Below are positions 20,109 through 50,000 of a stretch of 64,000 bases of DNA, in pieces. The notes under the pieces were generated by a model. That model worked only from the letters and a program-made list of their open reading frames with translations. It was not told the DNA's origin and did no database searches. Positions within the stretch are counted from its first letter, which is position 1. Every line of letters starts with the position of its first letter. The translations under genes and the position numbers were made by a program. Source of the DNA: Emiliania huxleyi CCMP1516 (lineage: Eukaryota); contig NW_005201791.1 of NCBI RefSeq assembly GCF_000372725.1, positions 117,788 to 181,787 on the forward strand, read 5' to 3'.

Positions 20109-20565
20109 TGTCCGCGTCCACAGCAGATGTGTGCGATTTCGAGCCGCGGTTGTGCGCTTTCGAGTCCCTTATACTCGACAAACTCGAGTAAAATGAACTC
20201 GCGGGTGTTTACTTTAAGGCCCTTGCCCTGCGAACGCGCACCCCCGGGGCTAGGGCTCTCTAGCCCGTAACCCGATACCGATCATCCGGCCCGCTGGATG
20301 CGCTTCTCAGCTCACCGGCCCTGGATGTGAGGTTGCCGACTGCACTCCAAGTGCTCCAAGTGCGGGCACGGGACGCGGCACAAACGGGGCACAAACGCCA
20401 GGCTACAAAGACGGGGAGGCACGTAGTGACGCAGGGGAGTCTAGGCGACGGCGGCGTCCTCCGACGCCGCGGCGAGCCTGAGCTCGGTCGCAATCTCTTC
20501 CGCCGCCGCGAGCTGCAGCGCGACTGACATGCGCTGGGCCTGCAGCGACAGCCACGACCGCGTCA

Positions 20566-35864: not shown

Positions 35865-37286
35865 TCACAGCATCGCCCTCCTGCCCATGGCACTCTTGTA
35901 ATTGTTGTCCTCGTTCGGCAATGGAGTGTCGTCACACGCGCGGCACAGGCCAGCAATCATCTGCATGTCAAAGGGTGGCGGCGGCACGGACCACACGCGC
36001 ACGTGCTTGCGTGCGAGCGGGTCGCGCTCGATGAGGCCGATGAGGGCGTTTGCAAAATCGGCCAACTCGAAGGCGAGCGACACCTCCGATGTGTCCACCG
36101 GCGCGCCCGCGGTCGCCGTGTTCGCGCCCGCCACGTCGTCGCGCCGCAGGCTCGCCAGGAGGGAGCGTGAAATCACTGGAAGGCGGCTCAGTCGCTGCTG
36201 CGCACAGTTCATCGCAGCGGAAATATGGCGCTCCACGGCATTGAAGGCCTGCTCATTGAAGGCCGGGTCCTCTTCCTCCATCGCCTTCTCGTCCTTCTCG
36301 TCGAGCTCCTTCTGGTGGCACCGGCGCTGATAGAGCGCGTTAACCGCCGTGGGGATGTCGAACATGCCATCCGTGATGCCATCCGTGAGCGGCAAAAAGG
36401 TGACGGGCATCGGGCGGAAGCTCTGGTCGCCGATAATCGTGCCGCTCGGGCTGGCGAGCTTGCGGATCGCGTCGCGCAGATACGCGTCGGGCAGATCGCG
36501 CGGGATGAGGATGTTGAGCGCGCATGAGCCGCGAAGCGCCTCATTCTTGCCGTCCAGCATGATTGGCAATGGTGTGGCAGCTGCGCTGCCTGGCAAGCGC
36601 TTCCTGCCGCCGTCGATGGCGCGCACGATGGGCAGCACAAAGTTGAAGAAGTAGCCCATCGCGATGCCCGTGCCCGCCAGGCTGAGCGCGCGACGGTACT
36701 TACGCACGAGCGCCGCGACGTCCGCCTCCGGGTCGTCCTCGAGCATGAGGAGATTGTTGACAAAGTGCACGGTGCCGACGATAAATGCGAGCTCGAACAG
36801 CTCGCCACGCGTAACCGGCTCCGTGTCGGAGCGGAAGAGCAAGGCAAGCACGAGCAACACGAGCGCGATAGCGGCGCGCGTCACGTCCTTGGCGCGCCGG
36901 GTGCCGAGCCCAAGCAGCGCGGCCCACGTGGCGAGCACAAAGGGCAGCAGCGCGGCATCGAAGAGCATGAGACCGATGCTGCCCGCGAGTGCGTGGAAAG
37001 TCTCCTTATCTGCCTCTGCACCGGCGTGGGGCGCCATGCCCGCAAGCAGCCGGCCGTGCAAAGTCGCGCTGTCGGTCGCAATGTCCGTCACATTCGCTTC
37101 CTGCATGGCAGTGTAGATGGCGTGTGCCGCACCGCTCGCCGCAAGCGTCGCAAACAGTGCAAAGTCGGCGATGCGCCTGGCGTCCCATCCGCCGACCGGT
37201 CGGGGCGCCTCCTTCAACGGTGCTTTGAGCTCGTAGCACGCCCCGGGCGGCACGTCGTCGGCGTGTAAAGGTTGGGTGACCAGCAT
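35865..37286 (-). CDS. Transmembrane STING-family cyclic-dinucleotide receptor with a bacterial-type STING domain; 473 aa, intronless
   Basis: Three to four N-terminal hydrophobic helices, then AGTGIAMGYFFNFVLPIV, LNILIPRDL, SFRPMPV, MFDIPTAVNAL and FELADFANALIGLIERDPLARKHVRV. These are the ordered motifs of prokaryotic STING domains (A.GYF.NF..P; L.I.IP..L; R; D.PT; EL..F...L..LI). Confidence 0.82.
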   Translation of the reverse strand: MLVTQPLHADDVPPGACYELKAPLKEAPRPVGGWDARRIADFALFATLAASGAAHAIYTAMQEANVTDIATDSATLHGRLLAGMAPHAGAEADKETFHALAGSIGLMLFDAALLPFVLATWAALLGLGTRRAKDVTRAAIALVLLVLALLFRSDTEPVTRGELFELAFIVGTVHFVNNLLMLEDDPEADVAALVRKYRRALSLAGTGIAMGYFFNFVLPIVRAIDGGRKRLPGSAAATPLPIMLDGKNEALRGSCALNILIPRDLPDAYLRDAIRKLASPSGTIIGDQSFRPMPVTFLPLTDGITDGMFDIPTAVNALYQRRCHQKELDEKDEKAMEEEDPAFNEQAFNAVERHISAAMNCAQQRLSRLPVISRSLLASLRRDDVAGANTATAGAPVDTSEVSLAFELADFANALIGLIERDPLARKHVRVWSVPPPPFDMQMIAGLCRACDDTPLPNEDNNYKSAMGRRAML

Positions 37287-37906
37287 CGGGGAAATGCACA
37301 AGTTTTTATTCGGGATCCGATTTTTTGGACCAAGACGCCGTTCATGGAGACACGCCGTTGTTTTTTATGCTAAAGGTCCCTGCGCTCGGCACCGTCAACT
37401 CGGTGCGGCTCCCGTCAGATTCCACCTTTTAGAGCAGAAAGGCCAGTAGGTGCCTCCCTGTTTGTAGACATGCGTTTGTGCCCCGTTTGTGCCACGTCCC
37501 GTGCCCCCGAGTTCATTTTAGAAACTAGGCAAAGGGGAAAAAAAGCAGGGCGCTCGGAAAACTCGCGCCGCCGCGGCGTGTCTCCATCCGAGCCGCGCTC
37601 CTTGAGCTACTTGAGCACACTTTGCACTTTACAGAGGCGCGCTACGCCCCGAGGCAACGCCGCACCACCTAGCACGCCGCGCGGCCATCCGTAGCGCCTC
37701 GCGGAGCGCCTCGCTGCCGCGAGGACTCGGAACTGAAACGTGTGCAGACCGGTTGCGTCGCTTCGCCAGCGCCGAGCACCAAACCTCTCTGGGCTCGGCC
37801 CAGGCTCGCATGTGATCCCAGTGACTCCCGCATCGGTTTCTAGTCTGAGCTCACCGCCCACACGAGCTCGCCGTCTTCTCACTCCTCATGCCTGCAGCAG
37901 ACTCAC

Positions 37907-38883
37907 ATGTCGTCCATCATCGAGAAAATCAAGAGCTACGACCTTCCGCCCGAGCTTCGCGAGGCGATCAACAAGCGAAACGACCTGCTCCTTGCAAAGT
38001 GCGCGCGTTCGATTGCGTGTCGCGGCCCCGCCAGCCGCATTCACTCCTCAGCTCGCGCGCGCGCAGGCTCTCCTCCGCCGCGGACCAGCTCAAGGCCGTC
38101 GGTGGCAACCGCCGCAAGCTGACACTGGAGTACCAGGAATTGGAGCGCTCCAACGAGGGCGAGCTGGCATCGCTGCCGTGGAAGTCCGTCGAGGAGGCGC
38201 GCACCGCCGGAAAGCCCTTTGAGATGACGCTGCACGACCCTCTCACGCTGCTCAAGGGGAAGACGTTCCTCGGCGGTCTGCTTGAGCTGCTCGGCGACAA
38301 GGGATCGAGCGATCTGCGCGTCGTTTGGGCCTCGGCCGACCTCGACAACTTCAAGACGGTCAACGACCGCTGGTCGCACGCGCACGGCGATTTCGCCATC
38401 ATCGTCGCGTGCCGCGCTATTCAGCGCGCAGTTGACGAGTGGAACCGCAAGAACGGAGCGCTCGGCCACGCAGTGGCGATGCGCTTCGGTGGCGACGAGA
38501 TCGTGTTGGCCATCGTGCTCAAAGGCGACCAGGCGCAGGCGTGCGATTCGCTGCTCGATGACGTCCACTCGGCGACGTGCCGCAGCCTGCAGCAGCGCTT
38601 CGACTTTGCCGCACTCGACCCCAAGCCCATCGACCGAAACGGCAAGCCGATCGAAGCCAAGGGCCCTGCCATCTCGATCGGCGTCTCGTCTGCGCTGCCC
38701 TGCGGCGCTGGGTCGTCGACGCTGTACACGAAGGGCTTCAAGCGCGCCGACGACCTGCTCAACGAGTTCAAGGACAAGTGGAAGAGTGGCGGCACGCGCC
38801 TCGGTGCCAAGCCGACTGAGGGGCTAGAGATCCTAGTGGCAAACCCCGGAAAGTGGGTCAAAAATGACCACCCTCACGTGTAG
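37907..38883 (+). CDS. GGDEF-domain diguanylate cyclase; exons 37907-37998 and 38067-38883, 302 aa
   Basis: HDPLT, ADLDNFKTVNDRWSHAHGD, RFGGDEI (GGDEI at 38488-38502), ISIGVS, RADDLLNEFK. A 68-nt GT-AG intron joins MSSIIEKIK...LLAK to LSSAADQL in frame. Confidence 0.9.
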
Positions 38884-39863
38884 GCGCGTATCTTAGCTAA
38901 GGCTCGCGCCCTGACGTGTAAGTGCTCATGTGCACCGAGCCCATATACGCACCTGCATGTGTGGACGCGAGTATTAACTAAGATGAGCGCCCACGCATGA
39001 GGATGCGCGTCTGCGTCCAGGTAGCCCAGATACCGTCTTCGTGTCTGGGCGCTTATCTTGAGTAAGGCTCGCGCCTACACGTGTAGCTGCGTATCTTGAG
39101 ATGAGCGCCCACGCTTGTGGCGCCTATCTTAGCTAGTACTCGCGGTGTCGGCGTGGGTGCGTGGCGGTCAGCATACGCTCCCACACATGCAGACGCGAAT
39201 ATTAGTCAATATAATGAGCGCTCACACGTGGAGGCGCGTATGTTGACATACGCACCTGCGCATATGGCGCTCAAAAGTGAATAGTTTTGGGTGATACGCG
39301 CTCAAGTCGCCTGTGTCATCTGTCCCTGGCTTGCTGGGCGCTGCTTTATGGCGGATCTCCTTGATGCCGCGGAGGATGATGCCGGCGCCGAGGTGCCCGC
39401 GGCGGCCGGGTAGCGAAGCGTTCAGACCACATGGCGGTCAGCAACATCGAGTGGAAAGACGTGGCGACGGTCGTCGAGCCAGCCGCCAAGTGTCTCAACC
39501 CCGGCCTGCGCGAGAGGAGGACTTGACGGAGGAGGCCGCACCTTCTTTGTCGTCCGCAAGCGCCCCGAGGGGGCCGCCGTGAAGTATTGGCGCTCATCTC
39601 AAGATACGCAGCTACACGTGTAGGCGCGAGCCTTACTCAAGATAAGCGCCCAGACACGAAGACGGTATCTGGGCTACCTGCCTGGACGCAGACGCGCATC
39701 CTCATGCGTGGGCGCTCATCTTAGTTAATACTCGCGTCCACACATGCAGGTGCGTATATGGGCTCGGTGCACATGAGCACTTACACGTCAGGGCGCGAGC
39801 CTCAGCTAAGATACGCACCTACACGTGTGGGTCGTCATTTTTGACCCACTTTCCGGGTTTGCC
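38838..39863. mobile_element. Non-autonomous Mutator-like (MULE/foldback) DNA transposon, 1026 bp
   Basis: Near-perfect terminal inverted repeats of about 270 bp (38838-39109 and 39589-39863, GGCAAA...TTTGCC), flanked by an exact 9-bp duplication GATCCTAGT (38829-38837 and 39864-39872). Confidence 0.92.
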
Positions 39864-39928
39864 GATCCTAGTCCGCGATCGCGCCGGCGCCGACAGGACA
39901 CCTCTGAACGTCGCAGCTGCAACCGAGG

Positions 39929-43364: not shown

Positions 43365-45851
43365 TCACGCCGCCACCGGCAGCCGAACTTCAAACGGCGT
43401 GGCGCGCGACGCGGCGAGCGACGAGAAGGCGTGCTCCCACACGCGTTGGTAGCGCCGCGCCGCGTCCGAGCCATCGGGCAGCAACTCCCCGGGATTGTGC
43501 AGCAAATCGACGATTGCGACGCGAGAGTCCACGACCACCGACGCCCACGCGTGGTGGGCGTGGGCGCCATTCACGCACCTGCCGAGGGAGAGGCCACAGC
43601 CGAGGCCGCAGCTGTCGGCGAGCGCCTTGAAGAGGACGGCACGCGCGCGCGCCCCGCCGCGTGTCAGCGAGCCGAGGGGGAGAACGCGCGAGGCGGCAGC
43701 CTTGCAGAGAGAGGCCGCCTGCGCCGCGCCGTCGAAGGACTCGTACTCCTCGTACGGGACGCTGCCGCCCATCCGGTCGCTCACCAGCACGGCGAGGCCT
43801 CGCACGGTGTCGGCGGCCGAGGCGGCCCGCACTAGGAGCGCCCTAGCCTTGAGCGACTCGAGCGCCGCGTCGGCGCCAGACACGTGGAAGATCGCCGCCG
43901 CCTCGCCCTCGGGCTGCATCGACCGGAGCGCCGCCGCGCCAACCAACGGCACGTCCTTTGGCACGGCGAGGAACTCCTCGCCGAGGGGCACGCCCACGGG
44001 GAGGTGCGAGTTGAGCCACAGCCTGGCCGAGGGCAGCGCAGTGCACACCGCCTGGAGCGCCATGGAGGCAGCGGCAGAGTGTTCGCCCTCAGCCTTGAGC
44101 GCGACCAAGTGCTGCACGGCGCCAAGAGAGACGCAAACCTCGGCCGACGCGGCGTCGCGCCCGTGGCAAGCTGCGGCGATGGCGGCCAGTGCGGCACGAC
44201 GCAGCGGAGCTGACGGGCTCCCGAGCAGCTTGACGACTCCCGTGAGCGGAGGAGGCGCGTTGTCGACGGCGCCGTTATTGTTGCCCCCGCCCTCGCCGCT
44301 GCCCTCGTCCGCGCCGCCGCTATCACTGACGACGCCCTCGCCATCGCCGGAAGCCGCACTCGACCCCAGAGGCGAGCGCAAGAGTCTGCGCACCTCCTCG
44401 TGCGCGGCAAGGGCGGCGAGGGCGTGGAGCGCCGCCTCGACGCGACACTCCTCTGGCTCCGCCTCGCTCGCCGCCTCCGTCTGGCTCGCCGCCTCAGCCT
44501 CGAGCCTTCTCGCGGGCCGGAGCCACTCGGCCAGCGCGACGATGGCTGGCTTCACGACTTCCATGGCTGCGTCACGCCCCTCCTGGCTGCAAGCCACGAG
44601 ACCGAGCGCATCCGCCGCCTTGGCGCGAAGCGGCGGCAGAGTGTCTGCCTCGCACACGAGGGATGCCAACATTTTCAGGCCGGCCGTGCCGTCAGACAAG
44701 AGAGGCTCCAGAGCTGGTGTGGGCAGCAGTGCGACAATTGCCGAGCAAGCAGCTTGCCGCACCGCCTCCCAGTCCGCAGACTCGAACCGTGCTGCAACAG
44801 GCCCAAGGGCTTCAGGGGGCTCAGCAGCGAGGAGCTGGAGGAGCGGGAGGGCAGCTGCTGGCCCGAGCGAATGCGCAATCTGTGGGGATCGCGCGAGGTT
44901 CTCGATGGCAAGGGCTACGTTGGACAGCAACTGTGCGGACGTGTGTGTCGGCTCTTTGAGACACTGGACCAACAGTGGAACCGCGTCCAGACGTTGCAAA
45001 GCCATGCGACCGTCTTCGAAGTTTGCGACAGCGGCCACCAAAGATGCCGCGTTCGCCATCAGGTCAGTGAAATCGGGCGGTGCATCGTCAGAATCTGGGA
45101 GCTGCAGGATGGTAATCACATTGGCGACCATTTTGTGCTCGAGCAACTTGGAGCGCAAGATAGCGTCGGGCAGCGCAGTGGCAAGCGCGAGGTGCGCCTT
45201 TGCTCTGGCTGTAATGGCGTCCGCGCCCTCATCCCCGCCAGGCGCCGCAGCAAGGCGGATCAGACCATCCAGGTCCGCCGTTCGAAGCTGTATGCGTGCC
45301 AGTGCAGAGTTGAGGCATGCCGCGAGCGCCGTTGCGGCTTGAGCTTGCAATGCGGCTGGTGCTTGCTGAGTCAACAACCCGAGCAGTTTTGGCACAGCGC
45401 CTCTGCGAACGCACGCACGGCCCTCCGGTTGCGACGCGATACGGGCTATTGCCGCGCACGCGTGCTGGGCGGCGGCTGCCCGCTGGGACGGATCGGCTGC
45501 GTTTTGCCATTTGCCATCGCGGGGAACGCTGAGCAGATGAATGAGGGACGCCGCCAGCTCTGAGGAGGAGAAGGCGTGAGGCCCATCACGCAGGCACTCG
45601 GCCAGCCGAGAAGTTGCTTCGACCGCGTCCACAAAGGACTGGTCACACTCCTCGGAGGAGAGGCAGCGCGCTGTGGCCGCCACGATGGTGGGCATGTTGC
45701 CGACGATCAGGTCCATTGCATCCTGCCCTGCTCCATCCTCAGCTGCCTGGCGGAGTGCGTCGAGGCCAGCTGCAAGGTCCGCGGCGGAAACCTCGCCGCC
45801 GGACTGAAACAGCTCCAGCGCTGCTTCCGGGGTCGCGGGGCTTGGCGGCAT
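43365..45851 (-). CDS. Armadillo-repeat protein with a C-terminal EDR1-like domain (ARMC3-like); intronless
   Basis: Multiple ARM-like helical repeats, then LVSDRMGG...RVLPLGSL..G..RARAVLFKALAD...HAW...IVDLLHNPGELLP...A.RYQR. Confidence 0.8.
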   Translation of the reverse strand: MPPSPATPEAALELFQSGGEVSAADLAAGLDALRQAAEDGAGQDAMDLIVGNMPTIVAATARCLSSEECDQSFVDAVEATSRLAECLRDGPHAFSSSELAASLIHLLSVPRDGKWQNAADPSQRAAAAQHACAAIARIASQPEGRACVRRGAVPKLLGLLTQQAPAALQAQAATALAACLNSALARIQLRTADLDGLIRLAAAPGGDEGADAITARAKAHLALATALPDAILRSKLLEHKMVANVITILQLPDSDDAPPDFTDLMANAASLVAAVANFEDGRMALQRLDAVPLLVQCLKEPTHTSAQLLSNVALAIENLARSPQIAHSLGPAAALPLLQLLAAEPPEALGPVAARFESADWEAVRQAACSAIVALLPTPALEPLLSDGTAGLKMLASLVCEADTLPPLRAKAADALGLVACSQEGRDAAMEVVKPAIVALAEWLRPARRLEAEAASQTEAASEAEPEECRVEAALHALAALAAHEEVRRLLRSPLGSSAASGDGEGVVSDSGGADEGSGEGGGNNNGAVDNAPPPLTGVVKLLGSPSAPLRRAALAAIAAACHGRDAASAEVCVSLGAVQHLVALKAEGEHSAAASMALQAVCTALPSARLWLNSHLPVGVPLGEEFLAVPKDVPLVGAAALRSMQPEGEAAAIFHVSGADAALESLKARALLVRAASAADTVRGLAVLVSDRMGGSVPYEEYESFDGAAQAASLCKAAASRVLPLGSLTRGGARARAVLFKALADSCGLGCGLSLGRCVNGAHAHHAWASVVVDSRVAIVDLLHNPGELLPDGSDAARRYQRVWEHAFSSLAASRATPFEVRLPVAA

Positions 45852-47018
45852 GGATGCGAAACGGCTGTATACTGTGGCTGGTGGGACGCACGCACGGCTG
45901 GAACTTGCGCCCCCTCTCCTACTGCTCCTGACACCACAACGGGCGAGCGGGTCGGATGCTCGCTCGGCTGCCCGTCGGCCCACCCGCGCTGTCCGTGCCA
46001 GAGGAGCTCTCGGATCTGACCACTCTGACCGAGAGCCTCGTGCGCGCCTCTGCCGCTTGGCGGTCCAGCGGGCAAGGCGGTGCGGCAGCAGACATGTGTA
46101 GGCTGCTTGAGGCCGCAGCGTCGGCGCTGCAGGCGCAGGTGGCAGAGGCAAAGGTGCAGCGAGGGCTGGCGGTGGCATCGCAGACGCTCGCAGCGACCCC
46201 GCACCCCGCGCCTGCCGCCCCTACCGCCCCGCCTAGGTGGGAAAGAGACGAGGAGATGGAACAGCCCGAGGGAAGGAGCACAAACACGTAGACCATGCTA
46301 ACGTCTCACGATCTCACTCGCGATCGAGTAACACCATGTGCACTAAAGCACGACTCCGTTAGCTAACATTCGACAAGGGCCCCACTCTTTCCTTCGCATA
46401 GCGGCCACTCTTCGGATCGCTGGTCGAGCGACCCGGGGGATGCCCCGCGCGCCTGACCCAGGCGCGGAAACGAATCTGCGAGGCGTGGCCGCTCATGCGG
46501 CCCGATGGGGAGGAGGGGAAGACGTAGGGCGTGCTTGCGCGCCTTTCCGAGGCCCCTCCAACCCACCCGCGCTAGTTCTCGGGTTTGACGCATGGGGTCA
46601 CTCCCGCGAAACCCGTGAACTAGCCGGGGCAGTCGGAGAAGGGGCAACTCCGTGCACTGACGGTCGGCCGTCAGAAATCCCGCCTCCGTGGCTCGGGTTA
46701 CACCAATCCTCGCTACCCAACGCGGCCAAAGGATATCCACCTCGAGAACCTCGAGGAGTCCTTTTGGAAAAATTTTGTTGCCATCCCAAACTGTCACTCC
46801 CCTTTCTCCCGGCCGGGGTGGGGCGCGCGCGGGGGCGGCGGGTGTGAGGGATGTCTGTGAGCCCGAGAGCGATATGCCATGTCCGCCTTGCGTGTTTTCA
46901 TAACATCGAAGGCTAAGCTCAAAAATTTTTCGCGGCCGCGCTGAATGGACAATTGACCCAACGTTGACGCGTTGGCACACAGCGCCGACCCTCGGCAGCA
47001 ACTGCTAGCAGAGAAGAC

Positions 47019-50000
47019 ATGCCGCCCGTAGCCCTGCGCGACTACCAGTCCGCAGCTGTGGAGGAAGCCGCCCAGCGGAACCTGCTCGTCGTCCTGCCGA
47101 CGAACGCTGGCAAGACGATCATCTCGGCCAAGGTGATTGAGAACGTCCTCTACGCCGAGAACGAGCGGGGCAGCGGCAAGAAGATTGTCTTCCTCGCGCC
47201 GGGGCGGGCGCTGGCCGTGCAGCAGGCGCGCGTGCTCGAGGAGCAGATCGGGCCGCTGCAGGAGGAGCCGACGAGCGTGGGCGGCGCTGCGTGGCGGCTC
47301 GGCCTGGTTGTCGGCATGGGTGGTCTCGGCCTGCGGGAGGCGGTCCGCTCGCGCCAGGCGCCAGCAACGCCGCCGCGGCGCGACGGGACCACCTCTCCGC
47401 GGCTTCATCTCGGCTGTGCCGCGGCTCTAGGCGCCTGCGACACGCTGCGGCGGTGTGAGGGAAGCAGCACTCTGTTCACGGGTGAAGGCGACGCGCGACA
47501 GGTGCTTGTGATGACGCCGCAGCTCTTCGAGAAGGCGCTCATCCACGCGATGCTGCGGATGGAGGGCGTCGCCCTGCTGGCCACCTCCTGTCGCGCTGCT
47601 GTGAGTGTGAAACCGCCTTCACGGCTCGCGCTGTGAACAGGTCCTCGACGAGGCACACCACATGCGAGGGAACGACCGGTACGCCACCATCATGAAGTAC
47701 TTCTACCTGCCGTGCGGCGAGCGGCCTCGCGTCCTTGCCCTCACCGCCTCGCCGGTCGAGAAGGCGCGAGAGGACGAGCCGGACTGCCGATCAAATTAAC
47801 GACCCCTGAGTTCATGGAGTCCAGTCAACGAGTTAATTGCTCTGACGAGCCCAGTGTAACAAACTAGTCAACTACTGTGACGAGCCGAGTAGAGCACACC
47901 TTCCCTGCGACCACTTCTTTCGTCGGCGCAACAGGACGAGCCGACGCCGCGAGCGACGGACCATGAACAACAAACAACACAGCCCCGCACCCCACTCGCA
48001 GGCGCACATGGTCGAGCCGGACGCTGCCACGTTCCGTACAGAGCTCGCGGAGCTAGAGGGGCGACTCGACTGCGCGGCGTGGTCACGGAGAGTTCCACCC
48101 ACGGTCGCCCCCCCACGCGCTGCCGCGGCGACTCACGAGCAGTTCGCTACGCACACACACTCTTGCCAGCTAGGTCGTCCCGCACGCGCTGCCGCAGCTG
48201 CTGCCCTTCGGCCGCGCTGCAGCGCCGAGCGAGCTGGTCGACGGCGTGAGGCGGGTGCTGGTGTGTGAAAGTAGAGATGGGGCGGGAGGCACGCACGCGC
48301 AGCACACACACTCAGGGGCGAGGGACGGCAGCACAACTCCACTCCGCGGGGCCAGCACGCGCGCGTGGCAAGCCGGCCGGCTGGCACCGACACCCTCCCG
48401 GACCTCCCCATATCTCCCCATATCTCCCCATATCTCCCCATATCACCACGCCGCGGGGCCAGCACGCACGCACGCCCCAAGCTCCTTGGTCGAGCCTTCG
48501 CCAGTTCTCCCACTCAGTGGCGTCACTCAGTGGCGTGCGGCTTGGGCCAACCGAAGGTCGCTCTCCGACCTCGCTCGCCGAGCCTTCAACCCGGCGCAAG
48601 ACGGCCGGAAGAACGCGACCGACACCCCGCCCGGATTTGCAAGCAGGCGCGGGTATGGGACGACGGCACGACGGCGGAGGCGGAGGAAGACATGGCGCCG
48701 CGCCGCAGGGATCGCCGCTCCGTGGAGGTGCGGGACGGCGCGTCTTCACACCAGACGCTGGCTGTGTGCAGGGGCTGCGCGGCGAGGGGGTCACAGGGGC
48801 TGCGCGGGTCACGCCGCAGACGGAGGCGGCGGCGCTGCGGTCTCTTTGCCGTCTCTTTAGGGTGCTCGCCACGGGCTGATCTGCCTTCTAGGCCGCGCTC
48901 GAGGGGAAGGAGGTGGAGGCGCTGCGGGCCGCGTGGGGGCAGTGCGTGGACAAGATCGACTCTATCTGTGGCGGGGGAGAGCTGGGAGGATGGGCGCCCT
49001 AGAAGCGGAGTACGCGCTCTTGTACCAGCGCTCGAGAGGACACGGACTCCGCGGCATCCGTTCGTATTCAACTGTATTCACTGTCCTCTTCTCCGTTGTA
49101 TTCACGCGGTGCTCTGAGGACGCTGCACAAGACCGTCTCCCCGCCCTGAGGTTGGCGTACACTCCGCGTAGGATGGGCGTACTACCACGCCGCGCAGATG
49201 CTCGTGCGAGACTTGGGCAAAGGGACGCGCGCGCTGTCGCCGTGCGAGGAGGGCTGGCCTAGAAGCAGGATGAGGGGGGGTCTCTGTGGAGTCCAGCCGG
49301 CACTCTTGCAGAGGGCACGTGCTCCGCTGCCTCCCGCTCACTCCCCTGGTGTTCGTACTCTCCAGTGGCCGCGTTGTACTCTTCGAGACCTCGAGACCTC
49401 GAGAGAGAGAGAGAGAGAGGCGGCCGCACGCCTCCCCGACCAAAGTCGAGAGTTGACTGTCATCTTTGGCGGGCGACCTGTATTCGTAGCCCCTCGTACT
49501 CACGCGGTGCTCTGAAGCCGCTGCACAGCGCCAGAGTCGATCCGCGTCGGTTGTGGTGTTGACGTGTATCACAGTCCGGCGGGTGTATTCACACGAAGTG
49601 TATTCACACGAAGTGTATTCACACCGCAGGAGAGGGACGAGGCGTGGCCCGCCCGACGCGCAGCCGTCGGCGGCTCCATGGCGCACGCCGAACTCCTGTC
49701 CAAGTGGCGGCGGGAGCTAAAGGAGCGGCTGTCGCGGCTGCGCTGCCCGCCACCGACTGAGCCGGCGAGCGCCTCGCCAAAGCTGCTGGCGCTGGTGCAG
49801 CACTTGCGCGAGACGCGGCCCGCAAAGTGCATCGTCTTCATCACGCGCCGCGCCGCCTGCCGGCTGCTCCACGGATTCCTGTGCGTGGGCCGTCGAAGCT
49901 GAACACGGACTCTTGTATTCCAACTAGCGCTCGAGAGGACACGCATTCCGCTGTACTCGGCCGTACTCGGCTGTGTTCATATCCCTCGTACTCAATCAGT

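What the first reader, a model, noticed from the sequence alone, without database searches (positions are those of the whole stretch)
35865..38883. Divergent TM-STING and GGDEF diguanylate cyclase gene pair in a eukaryote: candidate c-di-GMP synthase-sensor immune module
Seen: two genes sit head-to-head, 620 bp apart (37287-37906). One encodes 3-4 TM helices plus a bacterial-type STING domain (GIAMGYFFNFVLP, LNILIPRDL, FDIPT, ELADF). The other encodes a GGDEF protein with its catalytic motifs (DPLT, DLDNFKTVND, RFGGDEI) and a spliceosomal intron, which argues against bacterial contamination. Established: GGDEF domains make c-di-GMP; characterised bacterial STING proteins sense c-di-GMP, but there it is made by a CBASS CD-NTase; animal STING is fed by cGAS; GGDEF enzymes are rare in eukaryotes (Dictyostelium DgcA is the standard example). 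Inference: this is a CBASS-like or cGAS-STING-like two-gene cassette in which a GGDEF enzyme replaces the CD-NTase, possibly for antiviral or cell-death signalling in an alga. I know of no description of this pairing.
Basis: partly seen in the sequence, partly recalled or inferred. Interest (0 to 1): 0.96.

Follow-up and report, generated by a model that had tools for sequence, protein, structure and literature searches.

The report
Algal STING paired with diguanylate cyclase
In the bloom-forming alga Emiliania huxleyi, each of its two known bacteria-like STING sensor genes lies beside a gene for a different bacterial-type GGDEF enzyme, so the alga likely makes its own c-di-GMP signal to switch STING on, which would explain how such sensors work in organisms that lack cGAS.

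Summary
The window is Emiliania huxleyi CCMP1516. The minus-strand gene is a real bacteria-like STING (Pfam above cut-off; Foldseek's top hits are STINGs) that keeps most guanine-reading residues. The plus-strand gene is an intron-bearing GGDEF protein with most catalytic residues and the Asp that marks c-di-GMP synthases. New: the pairing recurs. A STING paralogue (82% identical) sits head-to-head, 198 bp apart, with a deeply diverged ankyrin-GGDEF gene on a metagenome contig; the reference genome joins the same two in one gene model. All 3 E. huxleyi STING models in a published survey lie beside or fused to a GGDEF, and that survey found no CD-NTase in this species. Related choanoflagellate STINGs bind c-di-GMP selectively. 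Against: seen only in this lineage; the window's GGDEF allele has lost its armadillo tail at a transposon-flanked break; other alleles look broken; STING dN/dS is 0.6; motifs are partly non-canonical; no activity, co-expression or immune role is shown. Best reading (0.5): an endogenous c-di-GMP synthase-sensor defence cassette. A linked pair of any function: about 0.75. One key paper (Burroughs and Aravind 2020) could not be read.

The parts
35865..37286 (-). Bacteria-like TM-STING gene, single exon, 473 aa
36750..37016 (-). Helical membrane region (aa 91-179: model helices 91-125, 131-152, 160-179; a fourth long helix at aa 36-82 lies upstream)
   Evidence: hydropathy; model
35922..36674 (-). 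STING ligand-binding domain (aa 205-455) with Y212, N215, F216, R291, D310, T313 and a helical insertion of about 70 aa
37287..37906 (.). 620-bp divergent intergenic region (possible shared promoter, untested); not homologous to the 198-bp spacer of the second pair
37472..37524 (.). Short high-copy repeat inside the spacer; public contigs break here
   Evidence: depth and loose ends; similar stretch at window 20364-20428
37907..37998 (+). GGDEF gene exon 1
37999..38066 (+). 68-nt GT-AG intron
   Evidence: spliced product equals NCBI model P0028; homologue P0032 aligns across the junction
38067..38883 (+). GGDEF gene exon 2; GGDEF domain about 38230-38784; native sequence ends at about 38823
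38838..39863 (.). Foldback non-autonomous transposon: about 276-bp terminal inverted repeats at 97%, 9-bp target-site duplication at 38829-38837 and 39864-39872 (Mutator-like by recalled TSD length); supplies the GGDEF stop codon
   Evidence: high depth and a second insertion end at 38838

Best explanation
A bacteria-like STING gene and a GGDEF gene sit head-to-head and likely form a two-gene signalling cassette, in which the GGDEF protein is predicted to make 3'3'-c-di-GMP from GTP, the membrane-anchored STING is predicted to bind it, and the output is likely a defensive membrane or cell-death response. Shown: gene structures, folds, residues, and recurrence of the pairing with two unrelated GGDEF families. 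Inferred: the repeat domains of the intact cyclases (armadillo here, ankyrin in the second pair) gate the enzyme on a cue; both lack the RxxD feedback site, so output would be switch-like; the ankyrin enzyme's N-terminal MGACGS would anchor it at a membrane (recalled acylation motif); STING has no TIR domain, so it would act through its transmembrane helices (analogy to bacterial TM-STING and the human STING channel, recalled). The window's own cyclase allele keeps the catalytic domain but has lost its armadillo tail, so it may be deregulated or dead.
For: STING identity: Pfam above cut-off; a profile of 6 homologues retrieves only bacterial STING chains from the PDB, 4 of 4 hits; model pLDDT 78; all listed Foldseek hits are STINGs, best E 7.6e-7. 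Pocket: R291, D310, T313, N215, F216 align with the c-di-GMP contacts named in PMC8748872 and are kept in 39-45 of 48 aligned relatives. Cyclase: DPLT turn, D122, K127, N130, D131, H135, D139, RxGGDE and AD-x4-K kept; Asp, not Ser, in xxGD marks c-di-GMP rather than cGAMP synthesis (PMC13725321). Recurrence: on L001 a STING paralogue (82%) is 198 bp head-to-head from an ankyrin-GGDEF gene that shares only 33% over 57 aa with the window's GGDEF and lies on a separate long branch. The CCMP1516 model EMIHUDRAFT_194791 joins that STING to that GGDEF on a different, 3.0-Mb scaffold. 3 of 3 E. huxleyi STING models in PMC10732462 supplement 2 are numbered next to, or fused with, a GGDEF model (two are alleles). 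The same survey scores this species 0 for cGLR, OAS and eSMODS. Choanoflagellate bacteria-like STINGs bind c-di-GMP selectively, Kd 0.59 and 1.75 uM (10.1101/2025.09.04.674280). A metatranscriptome run holds contigs over both genes.
Against: Pairing seen only in the E. huxleyi lineage; neighbours of the more distant STING relatives could not be fetched. 0 of 33 bacterial STING loci carry a GGDEF gene in the fetched flanks, up to 6 kb each side, so there is no bacterial precedent in that sample. The window's GGDEF is truncated. The other haplotype's STING model changes frame in the lid and lacks the DIPT motif; a 1-nt insertion at the same place appears in one contig each of two other runs. The reference genome's second GGDEF is joined downstream of STING without its N-terminal part, which suggests a rearrangement or misassembly. 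STING paralogue dN/dS is 0.60 (p 0.0065 against 1), and 1.05 in the membrane region: weak constraint. The cyclase is non-canonical (GGDEI, no Asn-Arg after DPLT, SHxxGD). The STING lid is R-P-M, not R-x-(Y/F). Related GGDEF proteins are fused to EF-hands or to receptor-like membrane domains, so c-di-GMP may serve ordinary signalling. Nothing here shows synthesis, binding, co-expression or immunity; RNA-run contigs may be DNA.
Confidence: 0.5

Rival explanations
1. A real synthase-sensor pair, but for ordinary physiology (life-cycle, calcium or stress signalling), as c-di-GMP serves development in Dictyostelium.
For: Relatives of both cyclases carry EF-hands (P0032) or an ANF-receptor plus membrane region (P0154, P0128), which points to a wider c-di-GMP network in these algae. 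No immune data exist here.
Against: Characterised STINGs act in defence (PMC8748872, PMC10732462 passages). Frequent broken alleles and weak constraint fit a costly, dispensable defence locus better than core signalling.
Confidence: 0.16
2. STING senses c-di-GMP from outside bacteria, as proposed in print for blSTINGs; the neighbouring GGDEF proteins are inactive binders, tuners or amplifiers, not the primary source.
For: Published hypothesis. The GGDEF motifs deviate from the canon and the window's allele is truncated.
Against: Metal- and guanine-binding residues are kept in both families across distant relatives; dead GGDEF domains usually lose them (established knowledge).
Confidence: 0.14
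3. Chance or hitch-hiking: bacteria-derived genes gathered in variable genomic regions, now decaying, with no functional link.
For: Broken alleles at both loci, a transposon at the break, dN/dS 0.6. Only one lineage examined. The number of GGDEF genes in the genome could not be counted (no genome held).
Against: With at least 38,452 gene models and an assumed 10-100 GGDEF genes, the chance that the second STING has a GGDEF as immediate neighbour is 0.05-0.5%. Both pairs are head-to-head under 700 bp and share no flanking DNA.
Confidence: 0.12
4. Guard or decoy logic as in Panoptes: the cyclase runs constitutively, its product holds STING quiet, and viral depletion of the nucleotide releases it.
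For: No RxxD feedback site in either cyclase. Precedent with a GGDEF-related enzyme (PMC12657218 passages).
Against: Known STINGs are activated, not repressed, by ligand. A haplotype with intact STING and damaged cyclase exists in a living strain, although the second allele could complement.
Confidence: 0.08

Closest known systems
Bacteria-like STINGs (blSTING) of microeukaryotes (Culbertson and Levin 2023, PMC10732462; c-di-GMP-binding SdSTING and DgSTING, 10.1101/2025.09.04.674280)
   Same: prok_STING domain behind four N-terminal helices; species without CD-NTase; E. huxleyi models are in that paper's supplement.
   Different: Described as stand-alone sensors of foreign nucleotides. No linked synthase is described; 'GGDEF' occurs 0 times in either main text, though one supplement row lists a GGDEF hit on the fused model.
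Choanoflagellate cGLR-STING gene pairs (10.1101/2025.09.04.674280)
   Same: Eukaryotic synthase and STING genes under 200 bp to a few hundred bp apart (178 bp in Monosiga).
   Different: There the synthase is a cGAS-like nucleotidyltransferase making 2'3'-cGAMP and STING is animal-like; here the enzyme is of the unrelated GGDEF palm fold and STING is bacteria-like.
CBASS with CdnE and TIR-STING or TM-STING (Cap12; PDB 7EBL, 8HWI, 7UN8)
   Same: c-di-GMP as predicted signal, STING fold, most class I pocket residues, two-gene layout.
   Different: No CD-NTase; divergent eukaryotic genes with an intron, not an operon; lid R-P-M instead of R-x-(Y/F); four helices instead of TIR or two helices.
Dictyostelium DgcA (Chen and Schaap 2012; seen only as a citation; details recalled)
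   Same: Eukaryotic GGDEF protein.
   Different: Developmental signal with no STING link known to me; the enzymes here carry armadillo or ankyrin repeats.
Panoptes OptS-OptE (PMC12657218)
   Same: Palm-fold cyclase next to a membrane effector.
   Different: OptS is an mCpol lacking the GGDEF motif and making 2'3'-c-di-AMP; its effector is not STING.

Membership tests
blSTING | Eukaryotic protein with a PF20300 prok_STING domain | tested here: met
   40.2 bits against cut-off 27.1; species
blSTING | Four N-terminal helices before the STING domain | tested here: met
   model helices 36-82, 91-125, 131-152, 160-179; only two strongly hydrophobic
blSTING | Groups with other microeukaryote blSTINGs, between bacterial and animal STING | tested here: inconclusive
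   quick tree of 45 of 48 rows, no animal rows, long-branch warnings; nearest named relatives are from Didymoeca, Hondaea, Pinguiococcus
Class I (c-di-GMP-specific) bacterial STING | Lid Arg, Asp at guanine N2, Thr and Asn at the backbone, stacking Phe/Leu | tested here: met
   R291, D310, T313, N215, F216 by profile alignment to 7EBL and 8HWI
Class I (c-di-GMP-specific) bacterial STING | R-x-(Y/F) lid motif | tested here: not met
   R291-P-M293; M or L in 33 of 48 aligned relatives
Class I (c-di-GMP-specific) bacterial STING | Selective c-di-GMP binding | not testable with these tools
   needs a binding assay
GGDEF diguanylate cyclase | GGDEF domain above curated cut-offs | tested here: met
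   PF00990 40.5/23.8; TIGR00254 51.7/37.4
GGDEF diguanylate cyclase | Full canonical signature (DxLT turn, metal Asp, Lys, Asn, xxGD Asp, GG[D/E]EF) | tested here: inconclusive
   acidic, Lys and Asn residues kept; GGDEI, SHxxGD and missing Asn-Arg deviate; fits the ambiguous class II of PMC13725321
GGDEF diguanylate cyclase | Makes c-di-GMP from GTP | not testable with these tools
   needs an enzyme assay
Hypr GGDEF (cGAMP synthase) | Ser in place of Asp in xxGD | tested here: not met
   Asp in both families
CBASS | CD-NTase gene beside the effector | tested here: not met
   neighbours are the GGDEF gene and unrelated genes; survey scores no CD-NTase in this species
CBASS | Antiviral abortive response | not testable with these tools
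   no infection data
Panoptes / mCpol | Minimal CRISPR polymerase nearly lacking the GGDEF motif | tested here: not met
   GGDE motif present and GGDEF models matched

The most novel reading that the evidence does not exclude
Coccolithophores run a third kind of STING pathway: a eukaryotic immune cassette whose alarm is c-di-GMP made by the host's own GGDEF enzymes, assembled or kept twice with unrelated cyclases whose armadillo or ankyrin repeats act as interchangeable sensors, and used against giant viruses or algicidal bacteria.
Probability: 0.4. Interest if true: 0.93.

Novelty: new variant of a known kind. Interest (0 to 1): 0.8.

Why it matters
Culbertson and Levin name as an open question whether and how blSTINGs operate without CD-NTases; current papers assume they sense foreign bacterial nucleotides. 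This locus offers a specific endogenous source and makes the question testable with two purified proteins. It would be the first STING pathway fed by a GGDEF enzyme, in a domain of life from which a 2025 paper says GGDEF domains are 'strictly excluded'. It also names candidate immune genes, with natural broken alleles, in the alga whose blooms are ended by viruses.

Tried and rejected
Bacterial contamination: rejected (intron, GC3 0.82-0.85 like the host, repeat-rich algal flanks, a second haplotype with the same downstream gene). A true STING-GGDEF fusion protein: considered unlikely; 8 of the 15 members of that cluster are 475-aa stand-alone STINGs and L001 has the genes on opposite strands; my six-frame search for the model's linker gave only a weak 6 of 16 match just past the STING stop. 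The 28.5-kb scaffold copy as independent evidence: rejected, it is most likely the other allele (same downstream gene in P0130). Viral origin: 3 scans of viral contigs found no relative. Single-sequence structure model unusable (pLDDT 39). Single-sequence PDB search found no STING. ESM Atlas: no hit for STING, generic GGDEF clusters at 0.90 for the cyclase. Structural second look (VIA-align) never ran, machine busy. The careful GGDEF tree did not finish; the quick tree has long-branch warnings, and whether the two cyclase families share one eukaryotic origin is neither shown nor rejected. No contig bridges the spacer in 4 runs laid; in two runs contigs reach the central repeat region from both sides, consistent with but not proof of the same arrangement. 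No RNA contig shown spans the intron. Rfam: only sub-threshold hits on a simple repeat. Sigma-70 scan empty and not applicable. Complex prediction not run: no direct binding is claimed. Earlier scan notes: none on this pairing.
Full report
1. Observation. The two genes are as described. The STING ORF runs 37286-35865 on the minus strand (473 aa, one exon). The GGDEF gene starts at 37907, has a 68-nt GT-AG intron (37999-38066) and ends at 38883 (302 aa). The start codons are 620 bp apart. The spliced protein equals EMIHUDRAFT_223522 of Emiliania huxleyi CCMP1516, on a 493-kb scaffold. GC3 is 0.82 and 0.85, like the other genes of the window. No whole genome was held for searching.

2. The STING protein. 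Pfam prok_STING scores 40.2 bits, above its cut-off. A profile of 6 homologues finds 4 PDB sequences at E up to 10, all bacterial STINGs. A model built on 48 sequences has pLDDT 78 and pTM 0.70, with four N-terminal helices, the STING alpha/beta core and a helical insertion. Every Foldseek hit listed is a STING, human or bacterial; TM-scores over the whole query are low (0.22-0.28; up to 0.75 by target length). PMC8748872 (passages read) names the c-di-GMP contacts: lid Arg, an Asp for guanine N2, Thr, Asn and a stacking Phe or Leu. These align with R291, D310, T313, N215 and F216 and are kept in 43, 43, 39, 43 and 45 of 48 aligned sequences. The aromatic residue of the class I R-x-(Y/F) lid is Met here, as in half of the relatives. 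The search of cluster representatives gave 61 relatives. Of the 41 scanned with Pfam none is fused to a GGDEF. Of 10 looked up, named ones come from a loricate choanoflagellate, a thraustochytrid and a pinguiophyte. This is a blSTING as defined in PMC10732462 (passages and two supplements read).

3. The GGDEF protein. It passes PF00990 and TIGR00254. It keeps the DPLT turn, D122, K127, N130, D131, H135, D139, RFGGDE and the late AD-x4-K. It deviates in GGDEI, SHxxGD and the missing Asn-Arg after DPLT, and has no RxxD inhibitory site. The xxGD Asp argues for c-di-GMP, not cGAMP (PMC13725321 passages). The allele in the window is truncated. Homologues at 91-93% identity continue after 38823 into armadillo repeats, and a metatranscriptome contig runs on there with the intact sequence. 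In the window 14 unrelated bases follow, then a 1,026-bp foldback element with a 9-bp target-site duplication, which supplies the stop codon. The element is at much higher depth than the genes. The missing armadillo part is not elsewhere in the window.

4. Recurrence, the main new result. That GGDEF is not a copy of the window's: 33% over 57 aa, E 2e-4, and the two families sit on separate long branches, each with its own relatives (quick tree, 36 rows, long-branch warning). DNA similarity between the loci is confined to the STING coding sequence, 89.6%. An independent assembly links the same two genes: CCMP1516 model EMIHUDRAFT_194791, on a 3.0-Mb scaffold, is this STING followed by the C-terminal part of this GGDEF. 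The orientation differs from L001; an inversion with one end inside the cyclase gene, or a misassembly, would explain it (inference). Two ENA proteins of these clusters share a longest-contig length of 4,231, a weak hint of a third case. Supplement 2 of PMC10732462 lists three E. huxleyi STING models: P008131, next in number to GGDEF model P008132; P035710, next to GGDEF model P035711 (the window's gene; I infer P035710 is the window's STING from the number and identical domain coordinates); and the fused P038452. The first is most likely the other allele of the window's locus, since its GGDEF model runs into the same downstream gene. So there are two independent pairings. With at least 38,452 models and an assumed 10-100 GGDEF genes, a chance GGDEF neighbour for the second STING has probability 0.05-0.5%; I could not count the genes, and local clustering would raise this. 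STING dS is only 0.146 while the cyclases diverged long ago. Either a recent STING copy was placed beside a second cyclase, or two old cassettes were kept and their STINGs homogenised. Both imply selection for linkage (inference).

5. Controls and results against. None of 33 bacterial STING loci (343,745 bases) holds a GGDEF by a profile built from 27 GGDEF domains; the profile's hits on the window and L001 are circular. No viral relatives in 3 scans. The other haplotype's STING model shifts frame in the lid, and one contig in each of two other runs has a 1-nt insertion there. dN/dS between the STING paralogues is 0.60 overall (p 0.0065) and 0.49-1.05 by region. So broken alleles are common and constraint is modest, which fits either a costly defence locus or decay. 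In the one run on record as RNA that I laid (4 of 18 listed runs were laid), contigs cover both genes, but contigs cannot show transcription, level or splicing. One ankyrin-GGDEF sequence carries a transcriptome-project name. Relatives of the cyclases are fused to EF-hands or receptor-like membrane regions, and an ankyrin-GGDEF is named from Phaeocystis antarctica, a species for which the survey's STING sheet shows no row.

6. Mechanism. Most likely (0.5): a cue sensed through the repeat domain switches on the cyclase, c-di-GMP binds the STING dimer, and the membrane helices deliver a defensive or lethal output. Gene structure, fold, residues and recurrence are shown. Synthesis, binding, gating and output are inferred. 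Support from print: two choanoflagellate bacteria-like STINGs bind 3'3'-c-di-GMP and not 2'3'-cGAMP (10.1101/2025.09.04.674280, abstract, passages and section 8 read); I did not have their sequences to compare. The survey scores E. huxleyi 0 for all three CD-NTase classes. Rivals: non-immune signalling pair (0.16), outside-nucleotide sensor with accessory GGDEF (0.14), chance or decay (0.12), guard or decoy (0.08). A functional cyclase-STING pair of any output is thus about 0.75.

7. Novelty. It works like CBASS and like the choanoflagellate cGLR-STING pairs, but fails membership of CBASS: the enzyme is of a different superfamily. Paper searches for Emiliania+STING+GGDEF, GGDEF+eukaryote+haptophyte+Dictyostelium, STING domain+GGDEF+haptophyte and a six-term version returned 0 papers; listings showed no title or abstract on the pairing. 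PMC12657218 (passages) states GGDEF domains are strictly excluded from eukaryotes; PMC13375341 (passages) says cyclic dinucleotide signalling was only occasionally introduced there. PMC8204762 and PMC10333796 (passages) add nothing on it. Caveat: Burroughs and Aravind 2020 reported a haptophyte STING (cited) and could not be read; it may have noted the fused model. Morehouse 2020 was also not held. bioRxiv supplements were closed, so the STING list of the 2025 preprint was not seen. The Mutator label, the acylation motif, TM-STING toxicity, the human STING channel and the DgcA details are recalled, not from calls.

8. Verdict. Observation confirmed; interpretation partly supported and strengthened by an independent second pairing. 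New variant of a known kind. Interest 0.8.

Noticed in passing
L002:5238-6669, L003:4945-6591, L004:5149-6651: Short bacterial TM-STING genes (Spirosoma, Neolewinella, Lewinellaceae) lie directly downstream of a zinc-dependent deaminase gene (PF00383), with no obvious CD-NTase in the nearby ORF list: a possible deaminase-STING system.
   Followed up: partly
proteins P0154, P0128, P0127, P0032: Eukaryote-like GGDEF proteins fused to an ANF-receptor domain plus several membrane helices, or to EF-hands plus armadillo repeats, suggest receptor- and calcium-controlled diguanylate cyclases in marine algae.
   Followed up: partly
L001:3-1649 minus; P0140, P0141: The ankyrin-GGDEF occurs as a single unit (468 aa) or an in-frame tandem double (938-946 aa), which would supply both halves of the catalytic dimer in one chain.
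   Followed up: partly
P0126, P0149: An ankyrin-GGDEF named from Phaeocystis antarctica is 89% identical to the E. huxleyi-type enzyme over the GGDEF region, high for these genera: transfer, strong constraint or contamination.
   Followed up: no
window 46968-47633 plus: Start of a DEAD/ResIII helicase, possibly Dicer- or RIG-I-like (recalled resemblance), 8 kb from the pair.
   Followed up: partly
window 38838-39863: High-copy foldback transposon with 276-bp inverted repeats and a 9-bp target-site duplication.
   Followed up: yes
window 43368-46220 minus: Armadillo-repeat protein with an EDR1/ARMC3 peptidase-like domain.
   Followed up: partly
P0114, P0107: A STAND NTPase fused to a prok_STING domain, and a protein with two TM-STING units in tandem.
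   Followed up: no
P0012: A member of the paralogue's cluster ends with the window gene's C-terminus, a hint of recombination or gene conversion between the STING copies.
   Followed up: no
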